A DNA stretch of 64,000 nt from an archaeon (lineage in GTDB: Archaea > Asgardarchaeota > Thorarchaeia > Thorarchaeales > Thorarchaeaceae), in contig JAJRWI010000077.1 in assembly GCA_024276825.1 (NCBI GenBank), forward strand, positions 14,502 to 78,501, read 5' to 3'. The notes beneath the pieces were generated by a model. It was not told the origin of the DNA. It ran no database searches and worked only from the letters and a program-made list of their open reading frames with translations. Position 1 is the stretch's first letter. Each line of letters opens with the position of its first letter. Of the stretch, positions 2-42,831 are shown piece after piece. The translations under genes and the position numbers were made by a program.

Positions 2-2779
2 CACAACTTTACTATTGACGTCATAGTATACGACATATCACGAACAAACGTAACTGTTGACGGTGCTGATTTAACATATCAGTGGTATATGCAATATGTA
101 GTAGATCAAAGTGGTACTCTGACAAACAACGGCAATGGATCATATTCGGTCACTCTCAATGCATATGATGCCCTGCCTTTGAGTCAATTGTATACTGTGA
201 CAATATCTGCAACCATGGCTGGTTCCACATCATCAAGCATTACTATCTTTGTGCGTATCAACTCCGTACCAAATGAGATAGTCCTAGAACAGAGTTTCTT
301 TGAGGTATATTATGCAGATGTGTTTGATGTACGATTCTATTGGAACAACACCTTGGATAACCAACCAATAACTTCTGCAGATTCAACAACTTACTATCTT
401 GCATCACTTGGTACTTATATCACAACAGGTGTAAATGAGGGCGAAGGCTGGTATCACTTTACAGTTGACACCCGGGCTCTGGAAATGAATACTGATGGGG
501 CAGCAGTTTATGTGATTCAAATAACTCATGCAAAAGATGGATACGCGCCACATGATATCACAACAGTCATCATTCTCGTCAGAGAGACCGATGCATCACT
601 TGTAGTGGACCCGATTGACAATGTCAACTGGTCAGACAGCTTCACAATCACCGCAAGTCTATATGATGACAGGCATGGTGACCTAATCTGGATTGGTGCA
701 CAGGTGACCGTTTCATATGGCACATATTCAGCTGTGATGACCAACAATCTGGATGGCACTTTCACAGTGGCAATAGACTCAGATGCTTGGTTTGCAGCAT
801 CAGCCATTCCATATAACCTGACATTCACCTATACTATCCCGAATTATGTTGATAGCACCAACTCATCATCAGTCATCATCGACCCGATTCCTGGTGTCAT
901 AAACAAGGATCCGACAACTGATGATCCAATAGTGGTGATTTGGGGTGATATGGTGACTGTGCGTGTGAGTGTCAATAACATCTATGGTGGTGGAAACACG
1001 CCGATAGATGACACAGCAGTCTACTATCTATGGAGTGGTTATGATACACTCCATCCAATGACCTTCTTGCCAAGCACCCATGACTACTATGTTGAGTTCA
1101 ACTCTAGTGAAGTTCCCTCAGGAAGCTATAACTTGATTGTACGTGTGATCAATGAGAACTTTACGATTCCAGATCTTCTAATCTCCGCAACCGTCAATCC
1201 AGTCAGCACAACTCTGATTGGTGATGTGAACTCCATAGTAGCGATTGTTGGTGTAGACCAGACTGCACGAGTCGTGCTCACATACTCAATGGTTGGTGGT
1301 ACACCGCTATCAGGTGCAACAGTCTACTATGACTGGGCTGGACTAACAAGAAATGGAATTCCAAGTGATGGGAACTATGTATGCGACTTTAATCCAAGTG
1401 AAACCACACTTGATGTTCCCGGAGTCTATGTCTTGACCTTCCATGCCGAGCTTCAGAACTATACAGCACAGACCTATAATGTGTCTCTCCATTTGATTGC
1501 ACAGACAGAGATTCAGGTCGAGAATCAAGTACTTCAGTCTGACCAGATTCTACGCCTGCACTTCAAGTATTATGATTTGACTAATGATCGCGAGGTGCCT
1601 GTATCAGCCATCATCAGTCTTACTTTGATTCTCCCGGATGGCAGCACAATGCCTGTAAACCTTGACAACCATGATACAAATGGATACTTTGTAGACATTG
1701 CAGCCACTGCAATTGGTGAAGAGAGCACAGATGCATATCCACTTTACATAATTGCCTTGGCAACTGGCTATCAGAATCACACTCAGACTGAATATCCCGA
1801 GAGCTTCACTGTTCTCATCATCGAACCTCAGATTGAGATTCCAGTACTTTCCAACTTCATTGGTCCCATTCCAAAGTCTTGGTTGATACTGGCAGGTGGA
1901 ATCAGCTTCATATTTCTCATTGGAATTGCTGGAGCAGTGGCCATACGCCGCATGAGGATTCCATACCAGATAAAGCAGATCAACAAGGCTCTAAAGGCAA
2001 TTGAGAACCAGAAGCGGGCAGAGGTAGAAGGAATCAAGAGCATGGGTCAGGTGATTGCAGAGCTGCTGGCTCCTGGTCTAGCAGAATTGAATCTACCTGC
2101 CCCAGTGATTGAGGTTGGTCCATCTGAAATATACGAGGAAGTCCTTGATGAGGAGACCGAGGGTCTGCTTGATGAACTAGATGCCCTCGAAGACATTGGC
2201 GAGGCAGAAGGAGCTCCTGAAGAGCCTATTGATTATGAGGCCGAACTTCAGGCTGAACTCGAGGCAGTGGAAGTTCCTGAGGAACCAACTGAGATTAAGC
2301 CAGAGGTTGAGGAAGCGGCAGAAGAGCCAGAGGTGGAAGAGCCCACTGAAGAGGTTGAAGCTGAACCTGAACCTGAGCCTGAAGCAGAGGTTGAAGCTGA
2401 GGCTGAAGAGAAACCCGAACCAGAGGCCAAAGCTGAAGCTGAATTGGAAGGTGAAGAAGCCCCTGTCGAACCTGCCATTGAACCAGAAGCTGAAGAGAGT
2501 GAAGACACAACTACTGAGGAACCTGACTCATTGGAAGAGGAACCAGTTTCTGAAGACTCCGAAGCAGACTCTGAAGAGCCAACTGACGAATCGTTTGAAG
2601 AAGATATGGCCGAGTCGACCGAGTCAACTGATATTGGCGAGTCACTCTCAAAGGAGGAGATCATTGAGCGTTTGCCACCAGAAATCAAGGAATCCATGAG
2701 TGTGGAGGAGTTGAAAGCGCTCACAAAGGAGGAACTCCTTGCCCTTCTCAAGTCACCTAAACAGGGAGGTGAGGAGTGA
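2..2779 (+). CDS. Receptor-like surface protein, 5'-truncated by the window edge. It has a beta-sandwich-rich ectodomain with many NxS/T sequons, a single TM (~1881-1950), a conserved juxtamembrane motif and a ~290-aa polyacidic E/P-rich cytoplasmic tail. It is a paralog of the 2822-9379 protein.
   Basis: The frame is open from nt 2, upstream of the annotated ATG at 89, so the N-terminus lies outside the window. A hydrophobic stretch LILAGGISFIFLIGIAGAVAI is followed by RRMRIPYQIKQINKALKAIENQKRAEVEGIKSMG. The tail is low-complexity E/P/A-rich. The ectodomain is collinear with the C-terminal 600 aa of the next protein's ectodomain. Confidence 0.8.
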   Translation, partial: HNFTIDVIVYDISRTNVTVDGADLTYQWYMQYVVDQSGTLTNNGNGSYSVTLNAYDALPLSQLYTVTISATMAGSTSSSITIFVRINSVPNEIVLEQSFFEVYYADVFDVRFYWNNTLDNQPITSADSTTYYLASLGTYITTGVNEGEGWYHFTVDTRALEMNTDGAAVYVIQITHAKDGYAPHDITTVIILVRETDASLVVDPIDNVNWSDSFTITASLYDDRHGDLIWIGAQVTVSYGTYSAVMTNNLDGTFTVAIDSDAWFAASAIPYNLTFTYTIPNYVDSTNSSSVIIDPIPGVINKDPTTDDPIVVIWGDMVTVRVSVNNIYGGGNTPIDDTAVYYLWSGYDTLHPMTFLPSTHDYYVEFNSSEVPSGSYNLIVRVINENFTIPDLLISATVNPVSTTLIGDVNSIVAIVGVDQTARVVLTYSMVGGTPLSGATVYYDWAGLTRNGIPSDGNYVCDFNPSETTLDVPGVYVLTFHAELQNYTAQTYNVSLHLIAQTEIQVENQVLQSDQILRLHFKYYDLTNDREVPVSAIISLTLILPDGSTMPVNLDNHDTNGYFVDIAATAIGEESTDAYPLYIIALATGYQNHTQTEYPESFTVLIIEPQIEIPVLSNFIGPIPKSWLILAGGISFIFLIGIAGAVAIRRMRIPYQIKQINKALKAIENQKRAEVEGIKSMGQVIAELLAPGLAELNLPAPVIEVGPSEIYEEVLDEETEGLLDELDALEDIGEAEGAPEEPIDYEAELQAELEAVEVPEEPTEIKPEVEEAAEEPEVEEPTEEVEAEPEPEPEAEVEAEAEEKPEPEAKAEAELEGEEAPVEPAIEPEAEESEDTTTEEPDSLEEEPVSEDSEADSEEPTDESFEEDMAESTESTDIGESLSKEEIIERLPPEIKESMSVEELKALTKEELLALLKSPKQGGEE

Positions 2780-2821
2780 ACAGGCTCACTCTTATCCCCA
2801 TTTTCTTATGGAGGCAATGAT

Positions 2822-5800
2822 ATGCTAACGATGCGGAGAAAGATACTACTTCTGTCATTTGTTCTCGTTTTCTTGTTGATTCCAGGATCCAACAATGCTA
2901 TCTTTGATACAGTCAGACAAGACCTTGCAGTGACGAATCACTCCACAATATCAGCAGATATTGAGGAGTCGACGCCTTGGTGGAACACAACATTCCATTA
3001 TAGAATGCATGTAAATCTCACCGACACGAACTCTACCACTCGTGTTGATGTTCCTACTCACGTGTGGCTGACCTTTGAGAACAATACCTGTTACAAGTAT
3101 TCCATCCGTGTTGTTGACAGTAACAATGTCGAGGTCCCATCTCAAGTATACAACTACACATATTGGGAAAACCCCAACTATGTGAAGAGTGCCACAGTCT
3201 TCTGGTACGCCAATATCAGCGCTGACAGCACTTCAGTCTACTGGGTCTATTTTTCAGAACTAACAACAATTGAACAGACAAACTATGACTCAGTCGTCTG
3301 GTTTGCTCGAACTACGGGGGCTCTCTCTGGAAAGTTCGATGTAAATTATTGGAGCTTTCGTGGGGAGTGGTACAATGTCACCATGTACAATGCAGCCGGT
3401 GGAAAGATCACTAATGGTGCCCACAAGAAGGCTGATGGAACTTGGGACTGGAACTGGGGCACCAATCGTGGAAGCATGCACTGGAATCCTGATGGTCTTG
3501 GAGGGCAGGCGACCTCTGCAACTCCTCCCATCTCAGGCACAACTTTTGTAAACATCAATGGTCCCCTCTTCATTAATTATACTACCCAGCTTCCATTTGG
3601 ATCTTATGCAAAATTGAATGTGACCTATACATTCTATAAATGGGGCTGGATCACTAGAATATACATCAAATACACTGCTTCTACTGGTGGTTCAGGGCGT
3701 ACTGATGAATGGGTGTTCTACCCTTACTTGACTATTGAGGGAATTGAGGTGGCCCCTGATGGAACCCAGACCTATTACAGTAACTGGGCCCCAAGTTCAA
3801 ACAAGGGTTTACCTGCAGGCTTTGGCTGGTGGAACAACAACGGCATTTCTCATGGCACTGTCAGAATCTTGCATGAGGCCTACAACATGCCAGCAGGTCA
3901 TGAGGATGACTTCAATAACTACTATTACAGATGGTGGGATACAAGCTCATATGAATTCTGGGACACATATCATCCAAGTGTGACTGTTCAGGCAGGTACT
4001 GTTCTTAAGGAAGAATGTGCTTTTGCAGTCTGGAACGGTGCAGAGGGCGAGGATGGCTACATGAGAGTGTTCAACGCCACTTCCCGATATCTGCCCATAT
4101 TTCGAGAAATAAGCAATGTGTCATCCTATTCATTCAGAATCAATGTGAAGGATCTTGGTGGAAACAATATCGAGGGAGCAAATGTCACGCTTCTCAATCC
4201 CATTACTGGTGCAAGACTGTACAAGCCAACTGGTGCACCCTATACCGATCTCACGGACTCAGATGGAAACGTCACCTTCATTGGTCTTCTCAATCAGACA
4301 TACCGAATCGATGTCTGGATTGATACAACAACATGGCTTACTCCTGAAGCTGGTGCTACAGGAATGAACGTGACCTGGAGCGGCACAGCTGTGGCCGATG
4401 GCCCATTTACACCAGTTTCAATCACGTTGGACCTCGCATCAATCACAATTCATCTGGATGATCTCGCTGGTGACCCCTTGGGCACAGTTGGCGCAGAAAC
4501 AGTCAAAGTCTGGATATACAATGCCAGCGATCCTTCAAGGGCGAACTGGAAGTACATGGACTATGAGACCACAGACTCATCTGGCGATCTCACATTCTAT
4601 AGACTGCCTAAATGCGATTGGTTGTTCAACTTCACCTATAGCAACACCGATACTGGTCATATATACACAAAAGCGGACTTTGGTCTTTACGTGTCGCATA
4701 ACATTGATGAGAGTCTGATAACTGATGATCTCACACGAAGCTGGGTGCTACCTCTCACAACCATTGACTTCTATGTGGAGGCTTATGATGGACAACCTGT
4801 AGAGAATACATATGTCAGAATCTCAAAAGCAGGCACAGCAGATCCCATAGCAACAGGAGTTACGGACTCCTATAACATCACCCATATGACAGATGCCAAT
4901 GGAAATGTCACCTTCTACCGAGTACTAAAGGGCAACTGGACAGTCGTTGTCTACAGAACTGATGACTATGGCCAGACTGCTTACAATACAAGTGAATATG
5001 TCTATGACACAACAGGTTATGCTTACAAGAAGATATCTATTCCTCTAACTTGGCTACGAATACGAGTTGTGGACAATAATAACAACCGAGTAACTGGCGC
5101 AAAGATCGATCTCTATGCTAATGGCGTTTTTCTTGTGACTGCCTATTCAGACAGTGCGGGTGAGTACAATTTTCATTGGATCAAAGCCAATGATACTTCA
5201 ATTGGATGGAGTTATACTGTTACTATTAGTAAGAACACAGCCCAAACTAGTGATTCGGTTTATGCTTCATATGACTATCTCCATTGGAACACTATTACAT
5301 TAACACCACCTGCTTATACTCAGAAATATACCGAACTCAACTGCACAGCCTCCGTATATTCATGGTATTATGCAGATAATGGGACATTCCAAATTGGCTG
5401 GTTCAATCGTACCAGCACAAGCCCATCAACGTGGGAAGACCAATCTTTGAATCAATCTGAGTACTTTGCAGGAACCATGAATTTCACAATATCTCATAAT
5501 GGTGTTGTGATTGGGTTCGGTGTGTGGAATTCTACCCACCATCTATATATCTCGCATTATACATCCGATGGGATATATTTCACAATTGCAATTGATACAT
5601 TACTTTTCAAAATGAATGCGAGCAATATACCCTATATTATAACAATAAAGGCTGAAACTCCCAATTATGATGCTCCTGAAGAATATACTGTGACCGTTGT
5701 TATCTCAGTGGCAAGTACTACTAGAAATGGAGCCACTTCATTGGAGGCATATTACCTTGATGGCTTTGCTGCATTATATTCATTGACAACAAATCCCTCT

Positions 5801-8800
5801 GGACGCGACGCTCTCAATCTGACTGATCTCGACTTTACGAACTATACAATTTATGACTCCGATAACAATATTATTTCAACAGGCAATCTCACCCATCTTG
5901 GCTCCGGCATCTATCGGTTCTCGGACTCCAACCTCAATACATCAGATGTTGGAAGCTATGAGATTGTAATCTGGCTTCATAAACTGAACTATATGAACCA
6001 TACTTTCACTTTAACAGTCACAATCAATGCAGTGCTAACTGAACTTGTCTGGACCACCGACCCATCTGATTATACTTGGGGCACAGGAATAAGTTTTGTA
6101 ACCCTTGAGTTTCGAGATACTGTTCATGGGGGAACGATATCTGGTGTGTCAGTGACGTATTCATGGATAGACGTTTCATCAGGGACAACTGTTCTCGTAG
6201 AGTCATCAAGTTCTCTGACATACTTGTATGCAAACAATATTGTTGCAAATGGCACATATCGAATCTATGCCTATGCCACCAAACAAAATTATCTCGCTGC
6301 TGATAGTACATCTGTTTCTTTTCTGGTTTCTCCCGCAAGTACAAGCATCTCGCTGAAATCATCCGACACAATAACTATTGAATGGGGCAGCGAATATGCA
6401 GAGTTTGACTTTGACTATGTTCAGGCACCTTTCACCGTAGCGGGCGCCTCTGTGATTAATATTGATTGGACTGGAGAATACAGTCTTGTTGATTATGACA
6501 ATGGAACTTACACATTGAGAATGCTTGCAGTTCAAGAAGCAGCAAACTATACAGTCACTTTCACGATGTGGATAGAAAATCGTACCAAGGCCTCAGAGAC
6601 CGTATATGTCAATGTGCTGATCCCATTGGATGTTTCATCATCTGAAGGGAAATCACTACAAGACCCAATTCAGGAGTACTGGACACGTTCATTCATGCTA
6701 CAAGTAATCGCTGGAGATCAATCCAATCAATCAGAATATGTTTCTGGAGTAATTGTCACTTACAACTTTCCAGCGGGTGGTATCTCTGGAACTTTCACAG
6801 AGAACGCCACTGGTCAATACTATTGGCTGGAGTTTCCAGCATCACTTGCTCCTGGTCCTGGAGTGTACGAGATTCAAGTGGAAGCAGCAAGAATTGGGTG
6901 CACAGGAACTTCTCTGTCAATTTACATTGAAGTTCTTCCAACTCCAACAAGGATAACCGCTCAGAATCAATTATTGACAGTCTACTATGCAGACTCTTAC
7001 CTACTCAATTTCAGCTGGTCAACAACTATTGATACTCCTGTTGGCATTGAAGGGCCAGATAATGTGCACATTGAACTATGGAAGAGCACGAGTCTTGTCA
7101 ATGGAAGTATTGCTGGTATTGTTGAGCTGGGCAATGGTGACTATCAATTCTTGATGGACACACGAATGCTTGGAATGACCGCAGACTCTCCTCTATTTCC
7201 AACTAGTTATTACTTTGTCATCACAATGAACAAACTTGGATACGAGGAGCCTCTTGCCGTCACAATAATCATTCTTGTCTTGCAGACTCCTACAGAGATG
7301 ACAGCAGATCCAATAGAGCCAGTCATCTGGTCGGAAGATTTCACAGTCAGAGTTCACATTCGCGATATAGTTCACAATGAGTATGTCTGGACTGATGCTT
7401 CAGTATACTTCATTTATGAGGACATTAATGTTACAATGACCTCTCTTGGTAATGGGACATTTGTACTGACTGGCGATTCTGCTGACTATTTCTCATCGTC
7501 AGACTTGCCTCACTCAGTTACTATCATCTATACATTACCAAACTACGTTGATGGACAGATTCAGGTGGAAGTGCAGATCAATCCAAAACCTGCCTATATT
7601 CTTAATCTACCGCTAGATGATACTTATGACTGGACTGACACAATCGATCTTACTCTGGATATTATTATCAATGGCACAACCACAAGACTTGAGGTTGACA
7701 GTTGCTACTTCTATTGGAAAGAGTACCCTGCAATAAATGGAACACTCGCATATGATTCAATATTCAACAGATATCTTGGTACGGTGAACACAAAACTAGT
7801 TCCAGCAGGTAACCTGACACTTGTGCTTGCAGCAGTCAAGGGCAACTACACAATTCCTGAGATTGAAATCTCACTGGAAATTAAGCCATTGCCTGCCAAG
7901 CTTAATTCAGTATCTGGTGATCTGCTAACTGTGATATATGGTCTTGATCAGTCAGCTCAGATTATTATGGCATATACACACGGAGACAATGATACTGTTC
8001 TGGAAGGTGCGAGAATCACCTTCATTTGGAATGGCCTTGAGCGTGAGGCTCTGTGGAGTGATGGTCAATACATCTTCGAGTTTAATCCATCATCTGACAC
8101 TTCACTTGAAGTTCCTGGTACTCTGGAACTTGTGTTTACTGCAGCACTTCAGAACTACACAACTGAAACTACCACAGTTCTAATGAGACTCGCTGCAAGA
8201 ACCGAAATTGTTGGCGGTCCCTATCGAGTCGAGTCTGAACAATATCTCAATCTTATCTTCAAGTATTGGGATGTTGTCAATGACAGACCCGTTGGGTCTG
8301 CAGCCACGGTTCAATACCAGATTGGAAACAACACCCCTGTCACGGTGACTGCAGAGCAGTTTGATGGAACTCAGTACATAATTCGTATACTTGCCGATGA
8401 CATCGGTGAAGTGAGCCCCGATCCCTATCAGATCCGGATATTTGCAAGCGCACCTGGCTATCAGAATTGGACCGTATTGGATGATCCTCAATACATCACA
8501 GTCTATGTAGACCCACCTACTGTCCAAATACCATTAATAGGCCTATCAATTGAGAGGTCTACGCTGTTTTTGGTTGGCGGAGTCAGTCTGCTGTTCATTC
8601 TTGGTATACTAGGTGCAATCGCAGTTCAACGCATGCGTATACCTTACCAGATTAAGCAGATTAACAAAGCACTGAAAGCTATTGAGAATGACAAGAAGGC
8701 CCGTGTTGAGGGCATCAAATCCATGGGCACTATCATCTGGGAGCTTCTTGAGCCTGGTCTAGCCACACTCAATATCACCCCTGATGTTCTTGGCGCAATC

Positions 8801-9379
8801 TTGGAAGCTCCCGTAGAAGAAGAGATTGCACTTGAAACTGAGGAACTCCTTGATGAGCTTGAGGCGCTTGAAGATATTGAGGCCGAACCAACTCGGGAAG
8901 ATGCTGCTTATGAGGAAGAATTGGTCGCCGAACTGGAAGAAGCAGTTGAAACCGCCGCGCAACCCGTAGAAGTCACAGGGCTGGTGGAAGAGCAGCCCGA
9001 AACCGGAAAGGCAGAGTTGATGCCAGAGGCTGAAGAAGAAACAACAGAAGAATCGGGGCCTGAAGAGGAACTCGAAGAAGATGAAGAAACTGACACTGGA
9101 GAACCTATTACCGAACCAGAACCCCCAGCTGATGAAGAGCCTAGCATGCCAGATGAAGAACCCATTGAAGATCTAAAGGACGACACAATCGAGCCTGACA
9201 TGGACGAAACTGAAGAGTCAGCGGGAAACATCGACCGGCCAGAAGAAGATGAATCTGTTGAATCCAATGATGAGGCGCCTGAGCCAGAATCGCAACTAGA
9301 TGAAGCCCCCTCTGATGACTCTGATGAATCATCTGGATCAACTGATCTTGTTGATGGAAATGGTGAAGGTGATGAATGA
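2822..9379 (+). CDS. Giant (2185 aa) secreted, membrane-anchored surface glycoprotein-like protein. It has a signal peptide, a DUF2341-like N-terminal region, multiple carboxypeptidase-regulatory/Ig-like beta-sandwich domains, a C-terminal TM (~8563-8628), a conserved juxtamembrane motif and a polyacidic tail.
   Basis: ATG at 2822 is preceded by GGAGG. The signal peptide is MLTMRRKILLLSFVLVFLLIPGSNNA. There are dozens of N-x-S/T sequons. The TM stretch is LFLVGGVSLLFILGILGAIAV, then QRMRIPYQIKQINKALKAIENDKKARVEGIKSMG, then a D/E/P-rich tail of about 290 aa. Confidence 0.85.
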   Translation: MLTMRRKILLLSFVLVFLLIPGSNNAIFDTVRQDLAVTNHSTISADIEESTPWWNTTFHYRMHVNLTDTNSTTRVDVPTHVWLTFENNTCYKYSIRVVDSNNVEVPSQVYNYTYWENPNYVKSATVFWYANISADSTSVYWVYFSELTTIEQTNYDSVVWFARTTGALSGKFDVNYWSFRGEWYNVTMYNAAGGKITNGAHKKADGTWDWNWGTNRGSMHWNPDGLGGQATSATPPISGTTFVNINGPLFINYTTQLPFGSYAKLNVTYTFYKWGWITRIYIKYTASTGGSGRTDEWVFYPYLTIEGIEVAPDGTQTYYSNWAPSSNKGLPAGFGWWNNNGISHGTVRILHEAYNMPAGHEDDFNNYYYRWWDTSSYEFWDTYHPSVTVQAGTVLKEECAFAVWNGAEGEDGYMRVFNATSRYLPIFREISNVSSYSFRINVKDLGGNNIEGANVTLLNPITGARLYKPTGAPYTDLTDSDGNVTFIGLLNQTYRIDVWIDTTTWLTPEAGATGMNVTWSGTAVADGPFTPVSITLDLASITIHLDDLAGDPLGTVGAETVKVWIYNASDPSRANWKYMDYETTDSSGDLTFYRLPKCDWLFNFTYSNTDTGHIYTKADFGLYVSHNIDESLITDDLTRSWVLPLTTIDFYVEAYDGQPVENTYVRISKAGTADPIATGVTDSYNITHMTDANGNVTFYRVLKGNWTVVVYRTDDYGQTAYNTSEYVYDTTGYAYKKISIPLTWLRIRVVDNNNNRVTGAKIDLYANGVFLVTAYSDSAGEYNFHWIKANDTSIGWSYTVTISKNTAQTSDSVYASYDYLHWNTITLTPPAYTQKYTELNCTASVYSWYYADNGTFQIGWFNRTSTSPSTWEDQSLNQSEYFAGTMNFTISHNGVVIGFGVWNSTHHLYISHYTSDGIYFTIAIDTLLFKMNASNIPYIITIKAETPNYDAPEEYTVTVVISVASTTRNGATSLEAYYLDGFAALYSLTTNPSGRDALNLTDLDFTNYTIYDSDNNIISTGNLTHLGSGIYRFSDSNLNTSDVGSYEIVIWLHKLNYMNHTFTLTVTINAVLTELVWTTDPSDYTWGTGISFVTLEFRDTVHGGTISGVSVTYSWIDVSSGTTVLVESSSSLTYLYANNIVANGTYRIYAYATKQNYLAADSTSVSFLVSPASTSISLKSSDTITIEWGSEYAEFDFDYVQAPFTVAGASVINIDWTGEYSLVDYDNGTYTLRMLAVQEAANYTVTFTMWIENRTKASETVYVNVLIPLDVSSSEGKSLQDPIQEYWTRSFMLQVIAGDQSNQSEYVSGVIVTYNFPAGGISGTFTENATGQYYWLEFPASLAPGPGVYEIQVEAARIGCTGTSLSIYIEVLPTPTRITAQNQLLTVYYADSYLLNFSWSTTIDTPVGIEGPDNVHIELWKSTSLVNGSIAGIVELGNGDYQFLMDTRMLGMTADSPLFPTSYYFVITMNKLGYEEPLAVTIIILVLQTPTEMTADPIEPVIWSEDFTVRVHIRDIVHNEYVWTDASVYFIYEDINVTMTSLGNGTFVLTGDSADYFSSSDLPHSVTIIYTLPNYVDGQIQVEVQINPKPAYILNLPLDDTYDWTDTIDLTLDIIINGTTTRLEVDSCYFYWKEYPAINGTLAYDSIFNRYLGTVNTKLVPAGNLTLVLAAVKGNYTIPEIEISLEIKPLPAKLNSVSGDLLTVIYGLDQSAQIIMAYTHGDNDTVLEGARITFIWNGLEREALWSDGQYIFEFNPSSDTSLEVPGTLELVFTAALQNYTTETTTVLMRLAARTEIVGGPYRVESEQYLNLIFKYWDVVNDRPVGSAATVQYQIGNNTPVTVTAEQFDGTQYIIRILADDIGEVSPDPYQIRIFASAPGYQNWTVLDDPQYITVYVDPPTVQIPLIGLSIERSTLFLVGGVSLLFILGILGAIAVQRMRIPYQIKQINKALKAIENDKKARVEGIKSMGTIIWELLEPGLATLNITPDVLGAILEAPVEEEIALETEELLDELEALEDIEAEPTREDAAYEEELVAELEEAVETAAQPVEVTGLVEEQPETGKAELMPEAEEETTEESGPEEELEEDEETDTGEPITEPEPPADEEPSMPDEEPIEDLKDDTIEPDMDETEESAGNIDRPEEDESVESNDEAPEPESQLDEAPSDDSDESSGSTDLVDGNGEGDE

Positions 9380-9498: not shown

Positions 9499-10380
9499 AT
9501 GATTAGAGAGATTCATGTCTTTAAGGATGGCGAGACTCTGTTCGAGGATGTCATTGTGCCCAACAAAGACCTAGACACAAAAGCAGTAATGATGCTTGTT
9601 TCCTCATCCTGCAAGAAACTGCAAGAGTGGAAAATTGACAGCATGGAGATTGAACGCTTTCGATATGTATACATGAACAGTCATGATACACAATTCATCA
9701 TCACTATGGACCGCCAGGCCTCATTAATGAAGGTTCACGAGGCAATGACATCTGCTGTATCAAAATTCATGACTGCCTTTGAGAGTGTTCTGGAAACTGA
9801 TGAATGGAAATCAACTGACTTTTCACCCTTCAAGGATGGCTTTAGAAGGATTGTCAGTAGGATTCCAGTGAAAGTCTGTCTTGCAGGTCATGGTGGTACC
9901 GGTAAAACAACTCTTCTTGAGCTTGCCACAATGCCATCGCAAGGGCCACCTCAAGAGTATGTGCCAACTTTCTTTGGCGATAAGGCTCTATTAAAGGCAG
10001 ACTTTGATCCATATGTGTTCAGCATGTTTGACCTTGGTGGCCAAGACCGTTTCGTACAAGAATGGGGCAAGATAATTCGGGCTGGTTCTCTTGTTGTGAT
10101 TGTGACAGACTCTACTACTGAGAACTTGGCATGGACCAAGAGAGTCGCTTACCCCGTTCTAAAGAACGAGTTACCTTATGCACGGGCAATAGCAATAGCA
10201 AACAAGCAGGATCTTCCTGGAGCTCTATCGCCTCAAGAGGTGAGCAGGAAGCTGGGAGTACCGGCGTACGGCATGCAGGCAAATAAGATGGACTTTAGAG
10301 ATCGATGGTTGAAACTGCTAAGAGGGTTGGCTTTTGAAACCCTTGATTTTGCAGTAGTAGGAGAAATAGAGGTGGAATAA
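9499..10380 (+). CDS. Roadblock/LC7-like N-terminal domain fused to an Arf-like (Arf/Arl-type) small GTPase.
   Basis: Residues 1-110 predict an alpha-beta-beta-alpha-beta-alpha roadblock-like fold. The GTPase motifs are G1 GHGGTGKTT, a switch I Thr in YVPTFFG, G3 FDLGGQDRF and G4 IANKQDLPGA. The DxGGQ + NKQDLP.A pair is the Arf-family signature. Confidence 0.8.
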   Translation: MIREIHVFKDGETLFEDVIVPNKDLDTKAVMMLVSSSCKKLQEWKIDSMEIERFRYVYMNSHDTQFIITMDRQASLMKVHEAMTSAVSKFMTAFESVLETDEWKSTDFSPFKDGFRRIVSRIPVKVCLAGHGGTGKTTLLELATMPSQGPPQEYVPTFFGDKALLKADFDPYVFSMFDLGGQDRFVQEWGKIIRAGSLVVIVTDSTTENLAWTKRVAYPVLKNELPYARAIAIANKQDLPGALSPQEVSRKLGVPAYGMQANKMDFRDRWLKLLRGLAFETLDFAVVGEIEVE

Positions 10381-10381: not shown

Positions 10382-10942
10382 ATGTCAGATCCAAGTGAAA
10401 CCACAAAGAGTATACTTAGTGAGGAGGAGCGAAAGAGACTCATCACTGAAATTGGGAATATAAAGAATATTCTTGATAGCTTCAAATATGGCCTGAACTT
10501 CGAGCAATTCGCTGATGCTTTGTTCAAGACCATTGACCGCCAGACACTGGCAATCAACAAGCTAGAGGCGCAGATGAGAGAGATCATTGAGAGAATGAAG
10601 AATCTTGAGAAACGATTCGATGAAGGTATTAGAGTCACAGTTTCTGGAGCTGTGAGTGCCGAAGGTGGTATTGAACCAACAGAAGTGATAATTGGCGACA
10701 AGGCAGAAGAAAAGGCAAAAGAAGAACCAACTACTCCTCCTGATATTGAAGTCATCAAAAAAGAGATAGAAGAGCTGAAAATCAAAATTGCCAAGCTGTT
10801 CGAGAAGGAGAATGAACTCACTGAGATGGCCATGAATGACCCGGCAGCAGCCGATGAGTATGAAGAGAAAGCAAGAGTTGCTCGTGAAATGAGAGTTGAA
10901 CTGGAGGCCAAGAAAAAAGAATTGGAGGACAAACTGCAATAG
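10382..10942 (+). CDS. Coiled-coil protein (186 aa). Its start is 1 nt after the GTPase stop.
   Basis: Charged heptad-rich sequence with a K/E-rich C-terminal half. Translationally coupled to the upstream GTPase gene. Confidence 0.6.
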   Translation: MSDPSETTKSILSEEERKRLITEIGNIKNILDSFKYGLNFEQFADALFKTIDRQTLAINKLEAQMREIIERMKNLEKRFDEGIRVTVSGAVSAEGGIEPTEVIIGDKAEEKAKEEPTTPPDIEVIKKEIEELKIKIAKLFEKENELTEMAMNDPAAADEYEEKARVAREMRVELEAKKKELEDKLQ

Positions 10943-10957
10943 CAATTGAGGTGATCA

Positions 10958-11305
10958 ATGAAAATGGGAATTTTCGATAAATGGAGAAGGAAGAAGCACA
11001 GAGCTGAAATGAGTGGTACTAAAGTGCCTGCACCACGACCAATTTCTGCAAGGGAAATGAGTTCTGAAGTGCAGGCGGAGATAGTCAGTCTTGTTGCTGA
11101 ATATGAGCAATTGTACAAGCGACGATCAGAACTTCAAGCTGAAAGAAGCGAATTGACTGAGCGCCTGGACCGCGGTGAATTGACCGCAATTGAATTCAGG
11201 AAACTTCTGATGGAGAAGATTCAGGAAGCCGCACAAGTGGCAGAGAGCTTAAAAGCAACAGCTGCTCGGTTGACAGAACTCGGCTATCGTGGAGTACTTC
11301 GCTGA
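10958..11305 (+). CDS. Small coiled-coil protein (115 aa).
   Basis: A GAGGTGA Shine-Dalgarno sits 6 nt upstream. Basic N-terminus followed by a predicted long helix. Same operon orientation. Confidence 0.55.
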   Translation: MKMGIFDKWRRKKHRAEMSGTKVPAPRPISAREMSSEVQAEIVSLVAEYEQLYKRRSELQAERSELTERLDRGELTAIEFRKLLMEKIQEAAQVAESLKATAARLTELGYRGVLR

Positions 11306-12695
11306 GGTGGGAACGCTGTCCAGGCGTGAAGATGAAGAACCCGAGACCCCCTCTGATATTGAGGAAAGGACTCGTCAGCTAATGGAGAAAGCATTAGGCA
11401 CCTCTGAATCGACAGATGTGCATGATGAAGGAGCCCCATTAGCACCAAGCACATCTCTCGCGGGACAGATATCTGAAACTTTTTTCAGGATTCAGATTCG
11501 CATGGAAGATCTCATCTCATCGATTGAAGACTCGATTAGGTCTATAGAACCTGAGATCAACGAGTCCCTAAAGAGCACGATTGAATCCATTTCTGAGCGG
11601 TTAAGGCGTGAGGCAGGTCTTGGTGTGTTCACAAGCAAGACAGTGAAAATTGTAAGAGAAGAGCTGGAAAAGGCCCTCTCCGTAGAGGCAGTTCATAAGG
11701 GCCTATTTGCTGCTCTTGCTGAAAGCCGTGAACAGGTGCGTGACATAATTCAAAAAACCAGCCGCGGTTCAATTCGTGAAATTGACAGACGCATTAGCAC
11801 ATTACAATCGAAAATTGTTCATGTTTATGCCAGACTGAACGAGCGAGAGCAAGAGATTGACAAGTTAAGATCAACAATAACCGAGCTTCGCAGCAAGATT
11901 TCCGAGATGAATGACATAATCGCACGTAAGGACAAAGAGATGGCTGAATATGTTAAACGACTTGACTCATTATTAGCAACCAGAGACCAATTGGCTGCAA
12001 AACTTGTCGAACAAGACTCCACCATATCCTCATTAACTGGACAGCTCAAGCAAGCAAGCTCTGAGATATTGCAATTGAAGACAATGATTGAGAAGATGGA
12101 CTCTGCTGAGGAGCTTGTTGTCGAATATGAAAACATGACAAAGACACTATCTGAATTGCAGGGACGCTTGGCTGAACTTCAGGAAACCCTCAAGCAGAAA
12201 GACATGACTATTGACGAGCTAAGCGAAACAATTAAGGAGTTCAATGCCGAGAGATCTGAACTTCAGTCACGTGTGCAAGAATTGGATGAAGAGGTCTCAC
12301 AGCTTCGTGGTGCCAAAGAGGGCTTGCTGTTAGAGATCGAAACCCTCAGGCGAAAGATTGCTGAACTTCAGGCACGTTGGGAACTATTATATCAAGTGGC
12401 TGAGGAAAGCCCTGCTTTCAGAGCATATTTTGTGGTCGCTGATAAGGAACACTGGTTTCCCCTATCTCACCTGTCTTCAGCACTGGGCATTCCTGTTGTG
12501 CGACTGAAACAACAATTAGAACGATTCATAGAAGTTGGTCTCTTAGAGATTGATGGCGACCGCATCCGCCCGAAAAAGCTCACTGAGGTTGTCAAAGAGG
12601 TCTTGGACCAGGATGAAAGGGTCCTTTCAGAGGCGAGGGGGGACTTGGGCATGGGGGATGACACCAATAATGAACAATCAGACAACGATACATGA
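11289..12695 (+). CDS. Long coiled-coil protein (~460 aa) with a C-terminal winged-helix-like domain ending in ...GLLEIDGDRIRPKK. The start is uncertain (GTG at 11289 or GTG at 11307).
   Basis: An acidic N-terminus is followed by roughly 300 aa of heptad-rich sequence (LQSKIVHVYARLNEREQEIDKLRSTITELRSKISEMNDIIARKDKEMAEY...). The C-terminal segment looks like a winged helix. It overlaps the previous gene by 17 nt, or starts 1 nt after its TGA stop if GTG 11307 is used. Confidence 0.6.
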   Translation: MEYFAEVGTLSRREDEEPETPSDIEERTRQLMEKALGTSESTDVHDEGAPLAPSTSLAGQISETFFRIQIRMEDLISSIEDSIRSIEPEINESLKSTIESISERLRREAGLGVFTSKTVKIVREELEKALSVEAVHKGLFAALAESREQVRDIIQKTSRGSIREIDRRISTLQSKIVHVYARLNEREQEIDKLRSTITELRSKISEMNDIIARKDKEMAEYVKRLDSLLATRDQLAAKLVEQDSTISSLTGQLKQASSEILQLKTMIEKMDSAEELVVEYENMTKTLSELQGRLAELQETLKQKDMTIDELSETIKEFNAERSELQSRVQELDEEVSQLRGAKEGLLLEIETLRRKIAELQARWELLYQVAEESPAFRAYFVVADKEHWFPLSHLSSALGIPVVRLKQQLERFIEVGLLEIDGDRIRPKKLTEVVKEVLDQDERVLSEARGDLGMGDDTNNEQSDNDT

Positions 12696-12720: not shown

Positions 12721-13062
12721 TTGGCAAGATCACTTGACGAAGTAATGAGGTTCCTAGAAAACTATACACTGGCTTGGCATCATTGGCTAATGATTCTAGC
12801 TTTGTTGAAATTGGGGGGTGCAGCGACCAAGGCGCAGATCTTCCCGGTGTACAAGAAGGAGGGCTTTTCTCCTCATGCAATTGAGGATGTGTTTCGCAGA
12901 GATTTGATAGAGCTTGGCGAAGCAATAGATATTGATGGCGACATAGACACTCTTCAAGACTCAACAATGATTTATCTTAGTGATAATCCCAAGTTTCAAC
13001 GGTTCATAAAGAAACATCTGAAGTCGGTGGTCCGAACTCTAAAGATGCAGAGACCGAACTGA
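12721..13062 (+). CDS. Small winged-helix-like protein (113 aa), paralogous to the C-terminal module of the 11289-12695 protein.
   Basis: It shares the motif ...LIELGEAIDIDGDIDTL with ...EVGLLEIDGDRIRP in the preceding protein. TTG start at 12721, or ATG at 12745. Confidence 0.45.
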   Translation: MARSLDEVMRFLENYTLAWHHWLMILALLKLGGAATKAQIFPVYKKEGFSPHAIEDVFRRDLIELGEAIDIDGDIDTLQDSTMIYLSDNPKFQRFIKKHLKSVVRTLKMQRPN

Positions 13063-13108: not shown

Positions 13109-13447
13109 TTGAGCATATTGAGCGTTAGAGCATCAGTTTGCAGTTCATGTGATCGGGCCATTGTGCCCCCTCGAAAAATATGTCCCTACTGCGGGCCTTC
13201 TGTTGAACCAATGAGAACAATAACCCTGGATGGTAAAGGTAAAGTCCTTAGTCATACTACTCTACATATGCCACCCGCTGGCTTTAAGGCCCCACTCCAT
13301 CTTGCTCTTGTTGTTCTAGAACACAATGCAATTGTCTTATGCCATGCTCTAAACGAGTCTGATGCCATGATTAAGATTGGTGACCGCGTTCAAGTTACAA
13401 CAGGCGAAAAGGAACTTCTCTACTATACGAAGATCAGACCTCTTTGA
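13109..13447 (+). CDS. DUF35-family Zn-ribbon + OB-fold protein, the short form of the thiolase/acyl-CoA-enzyme partner.
   Basis: Contains C-x2-C ... C-x2-C (CSSCD...CPYCG) followed by an OB-fold-like beta region. Paralogs at 39219-39875 and 59489-59887 sit next to thiolases. Confidence 0.6.
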   Translation: MSILSVRASVCSSCDRAIVPPRKICPYCGPSVEPMRTITLDGKGKVLSHTTLHMPPAGFKAPLHLALVVLEHNAIVLCHALNESDAMIKIGDRVQVTTGEKELLYYTKIRPL

Positions 13448-13509
13448 ATCGCAACTATAAGCAACTGTTTCATGAGCTACTAATTTAAGGTAGAATTTCT
13501 GAGGATGAG

Positions 13510-14694: not shown

Positions 14695-14725
14695 AGGGTG
14701 ATGAGGAGGAAACTCCCTCCTCATT

Positions 14726-16528: not shown

Positions 16529-16590
16529 AAATTATTATTCTAAAATCTCTTCATGTGCTTTTATCATTTTGCCAAACAGTCTGCTTAAGA

Positions 16591-17100
16591 TTAATTGACT
16601 CGATGGTTTTTATAATATTGAATGGCCCCTCCTGCTCTTAGAATGTCCATCATGAACGCTGGAATTGGCATAAACTTGATGAGTTCTCCTGTGTCCGTAA
16701 TTTTGACTTGACCATCTTTTAGGAACACAGTTAACTGTTGACCATCAACTATCCTCTCTGTCGCGTTCTTTATCTCAATGACAGGTAGTCCAACATTGAT
16801 GGCATTCCTGTAGAAAATCCTTGCAAATGACTCAGCAGCAATGCATCCCACTCCCAAAATGGTGAGGATCATTGGTGCCTCCTCTCTTGAAGAGCCTCCT
16901 CCAAAGTTCCTTCCTGCGATAATAATATCATTCTCCTTCACATTCTGGGCAAACTCGGGCCTTGGTATTTCTAGAGCATGCTTGGCCATCTCCTCATAAT
17001 CCAGTAGATTAAGATGTTGACCCTGAATGATTTGATCGGTGTCAATGTTATCGCCCAACACCCAGGCCCGGCCAGTAATTATTTCAGAGAATGCTCGCAT
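16591..17100 (-). CDS. leuD: 3-isopropylmalate/homoaconitate dehydratase small subunit (LeuD family).
   Basis: Motifs GDNIDTDQII and GRNFGGGSSREEAP. Length 169 aa. It lies immediately downstream of leuC. Confidence 0.85.
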   Translation of the reverse strand: MRAFSEIITGRAWVLGDNIDTDQIIQGQHLNLLDYEEMAKHALEIPRPEFAQNVKENDIIIAGRNFGGGSSREEAPMILTILGVGCIAAESFARIFYRNAINVGLPVIEIKNATERIVDGQQLTVFLKDGQVKITDTGELIKFMPIPAFMMDILRAGGAIQYYKNHRVN

Positions 17101-17104
17101 AAGA

Positions 17105-18367: not shown

Positions 18368-18370
18368 GTC

Positions 18371-19873: not shown

Positions 19874-19928
19874 CTAATTTGCATTCTACACCACTACGAA
19901 TAAATGAGTTGGTTGGACGAAATTACTC

Positions 19929-42768: not shown

Positions 42769-42831
42769 GTTGGAGAACACACCACTTGCTTTATCAGGAT
42801 ACTAGGCAAGGTAAGAATCAGGGAGGCCAAA

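What the first reader, a model, noticed from the sequence alone, without database searches (positions are those of the whole stretch)
2..9379. Tandem paralogous giant surface proteins sharing a strictly conserved cytoplasmic juxtamembrane motif and ~290-aa polyacidic tails
The two adjacent genes (the first is truncated by the window) encode collinear, sequon-rich beta-sandwich ectodomains with single TM anchors. Immediately inside the membrane both carry R(R/Q)MRIPYQIKQINKALKAIEN(Q/D)K(R/K)A(E/R)VEGIKSMG, followed by long E/P/D-rich low-complexity tails. The motif is conserved at the protein level while the underlying nucleotides differ at many synonymous positions (cgccgcatgaggattccataccagataaagcagatcaac vs caacgcatgcgtataccttaccagattaagcagattaac). 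That pattern points to purifying selection on the peptide, not recent gene conversion. The architecture is that of a receptor with a conserved docking site for cytoplasmic partners. I do not know a described family with this motif. Ordinary archaeal S-layer proteins lack such cytoplasmic tails.
Basis: seen in the sequence. Interest (0 to 1): 0.75.

Follow-up and report, generated by a model that had tools for sequence, protein, structure and literature searches.

The report
Thorarchaeal giant surface proteins, conserved cytoplasmic tail
Two neighbouring genes of an uncultured Asgard (Thorarchaeota-type) archaeon encode giant, sugar-coated cell-surface proteins whose best-conserved part is a short, undescribed helical module just inside the membrane. 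That pattern suggests the proteins connect the cell surface to machinery inside the cell, but this has not been shown.

Summary
Gene 1 (2-2779, cut at its 5' end) and gene 2 (2822-9379, 2185 aa) are collinear paralogues, 36% identical over about 720 ectodomain residues. They are 80% identical over the 50 residues after the single TM helix. Synonymous sites there are saturated (pS 0.80) while pN is 0.19, against 0.48 in the ectodomain, so this is purifying selection, not recent gene conversion.

The motif is a family signature, not a peculiarity of this pair. An exhaustive HMMER search of 1.84 billion representative proteins found 22 carriers, all giant proteins or fragments of them. Genome and metagenome scans gave 29 loci. 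Those that carry a taxon label are labelled Thorarchaeota. Across 20 full-length members the juxtamembrane stretch is the most conserved 40-aa window (0.68 against a mean of 0.38). A second giant family (at least 4182 aa) with no detectable ectodomain similarity also carries it. Pfam, NCBIfam and PDB have no match.

The tail is modular: a basic helix, an ELLxPGLxEL helix, an acidic LLDELDAL helix, a disordered polyacidic spacer, and optional C-terminal helical or HhH modules.

Both giant families sit on one conserved backbone (X, a longin-like/Arf-like GTPase, g7). Three of the eight loci fetched through GTPase homologues have no giant there. A cytoplasmic docking function is the best reading but is unproven, and the partner is unknown.

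The parts
2..2779 (+). g1: 3' part (925 codons) of a type-A giant surface protein, cut at its 5' end by the window edge
   Evidence: Translation. 36% identical and collinear with g2. Orthologues at 55-56% identity in L001 and L002.
1877..1945 (+). g1 transmembrane helix (SWLILAGGISFIFLIGIAGAVAI)
   Evidence: Kyte-Doolittle 19-residue maximum 2.46. AF2 helix with pLDDT above 90. Coordinates.
1946..2095 (+). g1 juxtamembrane (JM) module: RRMR-IPYQIKQINKALKAIEN...GIKSMGQVIAELLAPGLAELNL
   Evidence: 80% aa identity to g2 with pS 0.80 and pN 0.19. AF2 predicts two helices (model residues 34-47 and 60-74). Residues P, IKQI, A, L and G are invariant across 28 sequences.
2135..2272 (+). g1 acidic amphipathic helix (EEVLDEETEGLLDELDALEDIG) and the following helix (IDYEAELQAELEAVE)
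   Evidence: Conserved between the paralogues and across the family. AF2 helices at model residues 88-113 and 124-135.
2273..2644 (+). g1 disordered polyacidic E/P-rich spacer
   Evidence: pLDDT below 50. Composition. Length and sequence vary across the family.
2645..2755 (+). g1 C-terminal 'LP' helical module (LSKEEIIERLPPEIKESMSVEELKALTKEELLALLKS)
   Evidence: Conserved in most type-A tails and present in about three copies in type-B tails. AF2 predicts four short helices at pLDDT about 95. No Pfam family matches.
2822..9379 (+). g2: complete 2185-aa type-A giant surface protein
   Evidence: ORF and translation. Orthologues at 51-69% identity in L002, L003, L011, L018, L024 and L026.
2822..2899 (+). 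g2 signal-peptide-like N-terminus
   Evidence: MLTMRRKILLLSFVLVFLLIPGSNNA; Kyte-Doolittle 1.95.
8558..8626 (+). g2 transmembrane helix
   Evidence: Kyte-Doolittle 2.62. Coordinates.
8627..8776 (+). g2 juxtamembrane (JM) module
   Evidence: It contains the most conserved 40-aa window of the protein (g2 residues 1944-1983) across 20 non-redundant family members.
8816..8950 (+). g2 acidic helix (EEEIALETEELLDELEALEDIE) and the following helix (AAYEEELVAELEEAVE)
8951..9376 (+). g2 polyacidic tail without an LP module
   Evidence: No remnant of the module in any frame downstream. Several g2-type relatives also lack it.
9499..10380 (+). g3: N-terminal longin-like domain joined to an Arf-like small GTPase. 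It is a context gene and a candidate partner; no interaction has been shown.
   Evidence: Pfam Arf, 47.7 bits against a cut-off of 22.3. PDB Arf1 and Arl8 hits. The top 120 homologue clusters are 77-100% identical. The AF2 N-terminal domain matches longin-fold proteins in Foldseek at E 5e-4 to 2e-2, from a low-confidence model.
10382..12695 (+). g4 (10382-10942), g5 (10958-11305) and g6 (11289-12695): coiled-coil proteins. g4 was found only in loci with a type-A giant, and so was g6 except that L024 and L026 lack it.
   Evidence: Pfam and NCBIfam give coiled-coil-type hits only. Presence and absence.
12721..13062 (+). g7: small conserved protein with no family assignment; part of the constant X-g3-g7 backbone
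   Evidence: 57-80% identical in the loci that extend far enough downstream to include it, including those without a giant gene. No Pfam or PDB hit.

Best explanation
g1 and g2 are tandem paralogues of a giant type-I cell-surface glycoprotein family known so far only from Thorarchaeota-type Asgard archaea. Each has a signal peptide, about 1900 residues of sequon-rich, probably beta-sandwich ectodomain, one TM helix, and a 250-280-aa cytoplasmic tail.

The tail, not the ectodomain, is the constrained part. It has these elements in order:
- a basic stop-transfer cluster;
- a Pro kink;
- a lysine-striped helix (PYxIKQIxxALK);
- a second helix (ELLxPGLxEL);
- an acidic amphipathic helix (LLxELDxL) followed by FEAELxAEL;
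- a disordered polyacidic spacer;
- in g1, a small C-terminal helical 'LP' module.

I infer that the juxtamembrane module is a protein-protein interaction platform on the inner face of the membrane, and that the acidic spacer holds the terminal module out as a flexible tether. Together they would couple the giant surface protein to cytoplasmic proteins for positioning, clustering, or surface-to-interior coupling.

Shown: the sequence features that imply the topology, the selection pattern, the phyletic restriction, the modularity, and the sharing of the module between two ectodomain families.

Inferred: that the function is docking, and who the partner is. Candidates are the products of neighbouring genes: g4 and g6, which co-occur with type-A giants, or the constant X / longin-like Arf-like GTPase / g7 set.
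For: (1) Selection. In the JM module pN is 0.19 against 0.48 in the ectodomain, with synonymous sites saturated in both.

(2) Family-wide constraint. The JM window is the most conserved 40-aa stretch of the roughly 2200-aa protein in 20 non-redundant members, 0.68 against a mean of 0.38. The invariant residues include the polar K and Q (P, IKQI, A, L, G), which simple amphipathicity would not require.

(3) The module is separable from the ectodomain. The type-B giant in L027 shares only the TM and JM region with g2 (80 aa, E 1e-10) and shows no other BLASTP similarity at E below 0.1. Type-B tails (L027-L029, P0022) also keep the acidic helix and carry about three LP-like modules.

(4) Modularity typical of interaction tails. 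The LP module is optional. Three members carry an inserted HHH_5 domain, Pfam E 1e-12 to 1e-13. The spacer varies in length. AF2 gives confident short helices separated by a disordered region.

(5) Cytoplasmic location. There is a signal peptide and a single TM helix, K+R counts are 1 outside against 4-5 inside, and sequons are enriched 2.2-fold in the g2 ectodomain (1.6-fold in the g1 fragment) but absent from the tails.

(6) Locus association. The 26 type-A loci from the two scans that extend far enough downstream (all but L003 and L018, whose sequence ends first) have the giant directly upstream of g3, with g4 next wherever the locus reaches that far. Two more type-A loci fetched through g3 homologues show the same order. 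Type-B giants lie just downstream of g3-g7 on the same backbone in L031, L032, L034 and L035.

(7) Nothing known explains it. Pfam, NCBIfam, a PDB profile search and Foldseek are all negative. Only 22 carriers were found among 1.84 billion representative proteins.
Against: - No interaction was computed or measured. Multimer modelling was not available.
- The X-g3-g7 backbone exists without an adjacent giant in L033, L037 and L038. Synteny in the type-A loci also extends into housekeeping genes (ACAD, aconitase), so adjacency partly reflects general collinearity.
- The co-occurrence of g4 and g6 with type-A giants may trace back to a single evolutionary event.
- JM helix 1 has an a/d heptad pattern (I..I...L..I), read directly from the sequence. 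This fits self-association as well as it fits partner docking.
- Hydrophobic moments are unremarkable: the observed value of helix 1 is reached by 11% of shuffles.
- The topology is inferred from sequence rules, not from a dedicated predictor or an experiment.
Confidence: 0.5

Rival explanations
1. Self-assembly element. The TM helix and JM helices form a homo- or hetero-oligomeric coiled-coil or helical bundle that organises the giant proteins into a lattice or stalk. The polyacidic tail is a non-specific polyanionic brush (spacing, cation binding, nucleoid exclusion). There is no dedicated cytoplasmic partner.
For: JM helix 1 carries a heptad-like I..I...L..I pattern directly after the TM helix (read from the sequences). 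AF2 predicts it as a helix continuous with the TM helix apart from the Pro kink. Strong purifying selection would be expected for an oligomer interface too. The acidic spacer is poorly conserved in sequence and length.
Against: A brush does not explain the conserved, confidently folded C-terminal LP module, the inserted HHH_5 domains, or the conserved acidic helix. If the tandem paralogues had to co-assemble, their JM modules should track each other within a genome. In L002 and L011 they do not, at 55% and 53% identity and ranks 31-37 of 44.
Confidence: 0.22
2. Biogenesis or sorting signal. The JM module is recognised during membrane insertion, glycosylation, quality control or proteolytic processing of very long secretory proteins. 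It would be a stop-transfer or retention signal, or a recognition site for a processing enzyme, rather than working in the mature protein.
For: It lies immediately after the TM helix and begins with the basic cluster typical of stop-transfer sequences. It is found only on giant secreted proteins. C-terminal sorting signals are common on archaeal surface proteins (established knowledge of the PGF-CTERM/archaeosortase system).
Against: Known archaeal C-terminal sorting signals put the motif on the outer side of the TM helix and end within a few residues after it. Here the conserved part is inside the cell and is followed by 200-400 further residues that include folded modules. About 110 residues of conserved helices is far more than a stop-transfer signal needs.
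Confidence: 0.12
3. Nucleic-acid or nucleoid tether. The terminal modules of the tail (an HhH domain in some members, and the LP module with a faint SAP-like signal) bind DNA or RNA, linking the envelope to the nucleoid or to ribonucleoprotein.
For: An HHH_5 domain above Pfam's threshold sits in the tails of P0016 and P0020, and P0019 carries the homologous insert. There is a very weak SAP hit for the LP module, E 0.28.
Against: Only a minority of members have the HhH insert, and g1 and g2 do not. The tail carries a net charge of about -80, which disfavours nucleic-acid binding. The SAP hit is at noise level.
Confidence: 0.06
4. Artefact or recent gene conversion. The shared peptide reflects a recent copy event between neighbouring genes, or an overlapping nucleotide-level element, and not selection on the protein.
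For: The genes are adjacent paralogues, an arrangement prone to conversion. g2's closest JM relative in the data set is g1, at 71% over 58 aa.
Against: 27 of 33.8 synonymous sites differ (pS 0.80), as saturated as in the ectodomain. The motif is conserved in 45 distinct tail sequences from many genomes. g1's nearest JM relatives come from other genomes.
Confidence: 0.02

Closest known systems
Archaeal S-layer / surface glycoproteins with a C-terminal anchor (e.g. the Haloferax S-layer glycoprotein processed by the PGF-CTERM/archaeosortase ArtA system)
   Same: A large secreted N-glycosylated protein held at the membrane by a C-terminal hydrophobic segment. [quoted passage not shown]
   Different: There is no PGF-type motif before the TM helix (sequences). 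The TM helix is followed by a 250-280-aa conserved, partly folded cytoplasmic tail instead of a few basic residues. No S-layer family matches at or above its curated score.
Bacterial giant Ig-like adhesins (invasin/intimin Big_1, SdrD B-repeats, Ca-stabilised tandem-repeat adhesins)
   Same: A very long ectodomain apparently built of beta-sandwich modules, with weak Pfam hits to Invasin_D3, Big_1, SdrD_B and CarboxypepD_reg.
   Different: All hits are below the Pfam gathering scores. The anchoring mode (type-I TM helix plus cytoplasmic tail) differs from outer-membrane, sortase or T1SS-retention anchoring.
Eukaryotic type-I adhesion receptors (integrin beta subunits, classical cadherins)
   Same: The logic of the architecture: a large glycosylated ectodomain, a single TM helix, and a conserved membrane-proximal cytoplasmic segment that is the best-conserved part and, in the eukaryotic cases, docks adaptors (established knowledge).
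   Different: There is no sequence or domain homology, and no integrin or cadherin families were hit. The tail here is polyacidic and far longer, and no partner is known. This is an analogy only.
Asgard longin/roadblock-small GTPase fusions (Rag-like and related; described in PMC10933270 and bioRxiv 10.1101/2020.10.19.343400)
   Same: The neighbouring g3 combines an N-terminal domain whose AF2 secondary-structure order is beta-beta-alpha-beta-beta-alpha with a small GTPase domain. Such fusions are reported as typical Asgard signature proteins.
   Different: The g3 GTPase domain scores best as Arf, not Rag. The papers read do not mention a link to giant surface proteins: term searches within two papers on Asgard Arf-family GTPases found no genomic-context discussion, and PMC10933270 states that small GTPase genes in MK-D1 are mostly not in operons with regulators.
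Acidic-linker-plus-terminal-docking-helix tails (ribosomal stalk P1/P2/aP1, bacterial SSB C-terminal tail)
   Same: The design principle: a long acidic disordered linker ending in a short conserved helix that recruits partners (my own knowledge, not tested here).
   Different: These are unrelated proteins with no sequence similarity, and here the tail is tethered to the membrane.

Membership tests
PGF-CTERM / archaeosortase-sorted surface proteins | A PGF (or related) motif immediately before a C-terminal TM helix | tested here: not met
   The pre-TM sequences are ...NFIGPIPKSW (g1) and ...PLIGLSIERST (g2), with no PGF-type motif.
PGF-CTERM / archaeosortase-sorted surface proteins | The protein ends within a few, mostly basic, residues after the TM helix | tested here: not met
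   277 (g1) and 250 (g2) residues follow the TM helix.
Any curated protein family covering the tail (Pfam-A, NCBIfam) | An HMM match to the JM module or LP module at or above the curated cut-off | tested here: not met
   No family reaches its cut-off. The best hits for isolated tail pieces have E of 0.025 or worse.
Proteins with a solved structure related to the JM module | A profile or fold match in the PDB | tested here: not met
   hmmsearch with the 28-sequence JM profile gives a best E of 0.56. Foldseek with the tail model gives a best E of 8.
Bacterial Ig-like / beta-sandwich adhesin repeats (Big_1, Invasin_D3, SdrD_B, CarboxypepD_reg) | A Pfam match at or above the gathering score | tested here: inconclusive
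   CarboxypepD_reg scores 28.2 bits against 32.3, SdrD_B 25.2 against 29.7, Invasin_D3 24.0 against 33. All are sub-threshold but consistent with one another. No structure prediction of the ectodomain was run.
Type-I single-pass membrane protein with a cytoplasmic C-terminus | An N-terminal signal peptide, one further TM helix, and positive-inside charge bias | tested here: met
   g2 has a signal-like N-terminus. Each protein has one hydrophobic segment with Kyte-Doolittle above 2.4. K+R counts are 1 outside against 4-5 inside, and sequons occur essentially only on the N-terminal side. These are rule-based tests; DeepTMHMM and Phobius were not available.
Arf-family small GTPase (for neighbour g3) | A Pfam Arf match above the gathering score, with P-loop and DxxGQ motifs | tested here: met
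   PF00025 scores 47.7 bits against 22.3. GHGGTGKTT and DLGGQ are present in the sequence. The best PDB hits are Arf1 and Arl8.
Longin-domain fold (for the g3 N-terminal domain) | A beta-beta-alpha-beta-beta(-beta)-alpha fold matching known longin domains | tested here: inconclusive
   AF2 gives beta-beta-alpha-beta-beta-alpha for residues 4-98 at pLDDT 44-89. The top Foldseek hits are AP sigma subunits, the SR-alpha SRX domain, Sec22b and VAMP7 longin domains, and also roadblock-type LAMTOR proteins, at E 5e-4 to 2e-2. Model quality is low overall (mean pLDDT 55).
Acidic dileucine sorting signal [DE]xxxL[LI] | The motif is conserved at a fixed position in the cytoplasmic tail | tested here: inconclusive
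   ETEGLL (g1) and ETEELL (g2) fit the pattern. Only 31 of 45 family tails match, against 38% expected in composition-matched shuffles, and type-B tails do not match. Binding cannot be tested with these tools.

The most novel reading that the evidence does not exclude
The tail is a cargo- or anchor-type signal read by the Asgard small-GTPase machinery encoded at the same locus. Through its JM and acidic LLxEL helices, a giant surface glycoprotein would be recognised by the longin-like domain (whose best structural matches are AP sigma subunits) of an Arf-like GTPase, or by its X and g7 companions. This would be a prokaryotic forerunner of cargo-tail/adaptor/Arf coupling, used to position, cluster or traffic envelope proteins.
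Probability: 0.12. Interest if true: 0.9.

Novelty: new variant of a known kind. Interest (0 to 1): 0.6.

Why it matters
The two cultured Asgard archaea, both Lokiarchaeia, lack a regular S-layer. 'Ca. L. ossiferum' shows 'complex surface proteins' on a single membrane, and these have been proposed to mediate the cell-cell contacts relevant to eukaryogenesis (PMC9834061). Putative S-layer proteins were not detected in the P. syntrophicum proteome (PMC11284389).

Nothing is known about how such surface proteins connect to the Asgard cytoskeleton or small-GTPase repertoire. This family gives a concrete, sequence-defined handle on that question. It has a conserved cytoplasmic module of about 110 residues on giant surface proteins, restricted to Thorarchaeota-type genomes, and it sits beside one of the most conserved Arf-like GTPases of the clade.

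If the tail docks cytoplasmic partners, this would be the first described archaeal surface protein family with a conserved, receptor-like cytoplasmic tail. It would also make surface-to-interior coupling in Asgard archaea directly testable with peptides and recombinant proteins, with no need for a culture. If the module only oligomerises or sorts the protein, it is still a useful marker for the main envelope proteins of an uncultured class.

Tried and rejected
- Word-indexed protein search with the two-sequence motif profile found nothing. With 715 aa of g2 it found a single fragment. The exhaustive HMMER search then found 22 carriers, so the blanks reflect index sensitivity, not absence.
- Exact look-ups of g2 and of the 100%-identical g3 homologue P0023 returned no contig, and the cluster listing gave no name. 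The source genome was therefore not identified. The taxon is inferred from relatives.
- A PDB profile search of the JM module and Foldseek with the tail model gave no meaningful hits.
- Concerted evolution or hetero-oligomer matching of the tandem paralogues was rejected as a general rule. The pairs in L002 and L011 are only 55% and 53% identical in the JM module.
- The acidic dileucine signal reading has only weak support: 31 of 45 tails match against 38% by chance.
- A membrane-surface amphipathic helix as the sole explanation is not supported. The hydrophobic moment of helix 1 is not unusual, being reached by 11% of shuffles.
- ESCRT-III MIM1-like or clathrin-box readings of the C-terminal and acidic helices were compared by eye with the consensus patterns. 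They do not fit and were dropped (not a tool result).
- An obligatory giant-GTPase operon was rejected, because three giant-less backbones were found.
- AF2 of g3 with a shallow alignment left the GTPase domain unresolved. Only the fold class of the N-terminal domain is used here.
- Literature searches for a prior description of this family or locus found none. The library covers open-access papers only.


Full report
**What is in the window**

The frame open from base 2 to 2779 (g1, 925 codons, cut at its 5' end by the window) and the ORF 2822-9379 (g2, 2185 aa) lie 42 nt apart on the + strand. BLASTP aligns g1 collinearly with g2 residues 1289-1990 at 36% identity, E 1e-117.

Both proteins end with one strongly hydrophobic segment: g1 at window 1877-1945 and g2 at 8558-8626.

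- It spans 50 residues after the TM helix (1946-2095 and 8627-8776) at 80% identity. At the ectodomain identity rate this has P = 2e-11.
- A second conserved acidic element follows: ETE.LLDEL.ALEDI, then YE.EL.AELE.

The rest of each tail is E/P/D-rich low complexity with a net charge of about -80.

**Selection, not conversion**

Nei-Gojobori counts give pS 0.80 and pN 0.19 for the 50 motif codons. The 610 aligned ectodomain codons give pS 0.70 and pN 0.48. Synonymous sites are therefore saturated everywhere, and only the protein sequence is held constant. It also rules out a nucleotide-level element.

The duplication is old. g1 has orthologues at 55-56% identity (L001 and the upstream gene of L002). 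g2 has orthologues at 51-69% (L002, L003, L011, L018, L024, L026) in other genomes.

**Topology**

- g2 starts with a signal-peptide-like segment.
- Each protein has a single further TM helix.
- K+R counts are 1 in the 15 residues before the TM helix against 5 (g1) or 4 (g2) after it.
- N-X-S/T sequons number 53 in the g2 ectodomain against 23.6 +/- 4.1 in shuffles, about one per 36 residues. The tails have 0 and 1.

With a cleaved signal peptide and one TM helix, the tail must be cytoplasmic. This rests on sequence rules, because no dedicated topology predictor was available.

**How widespread the motif is**

Pfam and NCBIfam give nothing for the tail. A profile of the two window motifs was searched exhaustively with HMMER against 1.84 billion representative proteins. 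It found 22 proteins, 21 of them at E of 1e-10 or better. In each hit that reaches its own C-terminus the motif sits 150-410 residues from the end of a giant protein or fragment.

Pattern scans gave 9 loci among GTDB species genomes, labelled Thorarchaeota or 'uncultured archaeon', and 20 metagenome loci.

In an alignment of 20 non-redundant full-length members, the juxtamembrane window (g2 residues 1944-1983) is the most conserved 40-residue stretch of the whole protein. Its mean pairwise identity is 0.68 against 0.38 overall. Residues P, IKQI, A, L and G are invariant across 28 diverse sequences.

So the 'strict conservation' is a family signature and not a property of this gene pair. In two other tandem pairs (L002, L011) the paralogues' motifs are only 55% and 53% identical.

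**Anatomy of the tail**

AF2 was run with an 18-sequence alignment. It predicts, in model residues:
- the TM helix (pLDDT above 90);
- after the Pro kink, a helix PYQIKQINKALKAI (residues 34-47);
- a loop, then a helix MGQVIAELLAPGLAE (60-74);
- a long acidic helix (88-113) and a short one (124-135);
- about 120 disordered residues;
- in g1, a C-terminal bundle of four short helices at pLDDT about 95 (window 2645-2755, the 'LP module' LSKEEIIERLPPEIKESMSVEELKALTKEELLALLKS).

g2 lacks this module, and no remnant lies downstream. Several g2-type relatives also lack it. Three members carry an HHH_5 domain inserted in the tail, Pfam E 1e-12 to 1e-13. Others carry a different terminal helical module. 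No PDB sequence or fold relative was found.

**A second ectodomain family with the same tail**

Loci L027-L029 and protein P0022 encode a much larger, internally repetitive protein. L027 holds more than 3810 aa of it, and its orthologue in L031 is annotated at 4182 aa. The L027 protein resembles g2 only in the TM helix and juxtamembrane module (80 aa, E 1e-10); no other BLASTP segment reaches E below 0.1. These tails also keep an acidic helix (SEAELLDIMDEF) and carry about three LP-like modules. The tail therefore behaves as a unit that is independent of the ectodomain.

**Genomic context**

In the window, g2 is followed after 119 nt by a tight operon:
- g3 (9499-10380), separated from g4 by 1 nt;
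- g4, then a 15-nt gap to g5;
- g5, which overlaps g6 by 17 nt;
- g6, then a 25-nt gap to g7 (12721-13062).

g3 has a Pfam Arf domain (47.7 bits against a cut-off of 22.3) at residues 124-255 and matches Arf1 and Arl8 structures. Its N-terminal 100 residues are predicted as beta-beta-alpha-beta-beta-alpha. In Foldseek they hit longin-fold proteins (AP sigma subunits, the SR-alpha SRX domain, Sec22b, VAMP7) and also roadblock-type LAMTOR proteins, at E 5e-4 to 2e-2. The model has a mean pLDDT of 55. 'Longin-like' is therefore more apt than 'roadblock', but it is not firm.

g3 is strikingly conserved. Its 120 best homologue clusters are 77-100% identical, and nearly all that carry a name are labelled Thorarchaeota. 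g4-g6 are coiled-coil proteins. g7 has no family.

**How strong the linkage is**

All 26 type-A loci from the two scans show the same downstream order as far as their sequence extends: giant, g3, g4, g5, (g6), g7. In L003 and L018 the sequence ends before g3. Collinearity there continues into ACAD and aconitase genes, so it is partly just conserved gene order.

Sampling from the g3 side is more informative. A constant backbone of thiolase, X (388-410 aa, with only weak wHTH hits), g3, (g5), g7, OB-fold protein and ACAD carries one of three arrangements:
1. A type-A giant between X and g3, together with g4 and g6 (L030, L036, and the window type).
2. A type-B giant just downstream of g7 (L031/L032 and L034/L035). 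The L031 giant is 62% identical to the motif-bearing giant of L027.
3. No giant at all (L033, L037, L038).

So both motif-bearing giant families occur at the same few-kilobase locus but at different positions. That is suggestive. However, the GTPase backbone does not need an adjacent giant. g4 was seen only in loci with a type-A giant, and so was g6 except that L024 and L026 lack it. This pattern may trace back to a single evolutionary event.

**Interpretation**

The best-supported reading (confidence about 0.5) is that these are major envelope or adhesion glycoproteins of Thorarchaeota-type archaea. Their juxtamembrane module would be a protein-protein interaction platform on the inner membrane face, with the acidic spacer presenting optional terminal modules as a flexible tether.

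Which partner it binds is open. Rival readings are:
- self-assembly through a TM-proximal coiled coil plus a non-specific polyanionic brush (0.22);
- a biogenesis or sorting signal (0.12);
- a nucleic-acid tether through HhH or SAP-like modules (0.06);
- conversion or artefact (0.02, contradicted by the synonymous-site data).

The tempting parallel is a [DE]xxxL[LI]-like motif in the tail next to a sigma-adaptin-like longin domain fused to an Arf-like GTPase. It is recorded only as the most novel reading that is not excluded. The motif matches 31 of 45 tails against 38% by chance, and the fold match comes from a low-confidence model.

**Comparison with what is known**

The proteins share size, glycosylation density and a C-terminal anchor with archaeal S-layer and surface glycoproteins. 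They fail the defining features of PGF-CTERM-type sorting: there is no such motif, and a long tail follows the TM helix. They give only sub-threshold hits to bacterial Ig-like adhesin repeats. Any resemblance to integrin- or cadherin-type receptors is architectural only.

Longin or roadblock domains fused to small GTPases are already described in Asgard archaea (PMC10933270; bioRxiv 10.1101/2020.10.19.343400). The papers I read do not link them to surface proteins. Literature searches found no description of this family.

I rate it a new variant of a known kind: a giant archaeal surface protein with an undescribed, conserved, modular cytoplasmic tail. Interest is 0.6, because the function is still inferred.

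Noticed in passing
window 9499-10380 (g3) and homologues P0023-P0142: The longin-like/Arf-like GTPase is unusually conserved. Its 120 best homologue clusters are 77-100% identical over the full 293 aa, and nearly all the named ones are labelled Thorarchaeota. The N-terminal domain's best structural matches are AP sigma subunits and the SR-alpha SRX domain.
   Followed up: partly
L030 1513-2679; L033 8802-9968; L034 8723-9955 (outside the window, upstream of g1 in relatives): A 388-410-aa protein 'X' with only weak wHTH-type Pfam hits always sits next to the thiolase gene. It lies directly upstream of g3, or of the type-A giant where one is present. Together with g3 and g7 it forms the constant backbone of the locus.
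   Followed up: partly
L027 2-11434; L031 2311-11603; L035 6317-10456: A second giant family (type B, at least 4182 aa, internally repetitive with many self-hits). It shares only the TM helix and juxtamembrane module with the window proteins, and its tail carries about three LP-like modules.
   Followed up: partly
proteins P0016, P0019, P0020 (tails): An HHH_5 helix-hairpin-helix domain (Pfam E 1e-12 to 1e-13) is inserted in the otherwise polyacidic cytoplasmic tail of some family members.
   Followed up: partly
window 11289-12695 (g6) and 12721-13062 (g7): The C-terminus of g6 (about residues 385-440) and g7 both look winged-helix-like by eye. g6 has a weak HemN_C hit. g7 has no Pfam or PDB match despite being 57-80% conserved.
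   Followed up: no
window 42000-47600: A low-GC stretch (0.36 against about 0.44 elsewhere) encodes a 1159-aa right-handed beta-helix/NosD-like protein (42832-46311, +). Next to it is a Big_7 Ig-domain protein (46241-47593, -). This may be another surface-protein island.
   Followed up: no
window 13109-23110: A housekeeping block is collinear with other Thorarchaeota-type contigs: OB-fold/zinc-ribbon ChsH2-like protein, acyl-CoA dehydrogenase, aconitase large and small subunits, isocitrate/isopropylmalate dehydrogenase, FAA hydrolase, and a GH31/melibiase-like protein.
   Followed up: partly
L024 and L026: In these loci only a g2-type giant is seen directly upstream of g3. g6 was not detected, and about 1.2 kb of other sequence lies between g7 and the OB-fold gene.
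   Followed up: no
tool behaviour: The word-indexed protein search missed the family almost entirely, although the exhaustive HMMER search and the DNA pattern scans found it. Negative results from that index should not be read as absence.
   Followed up: yes
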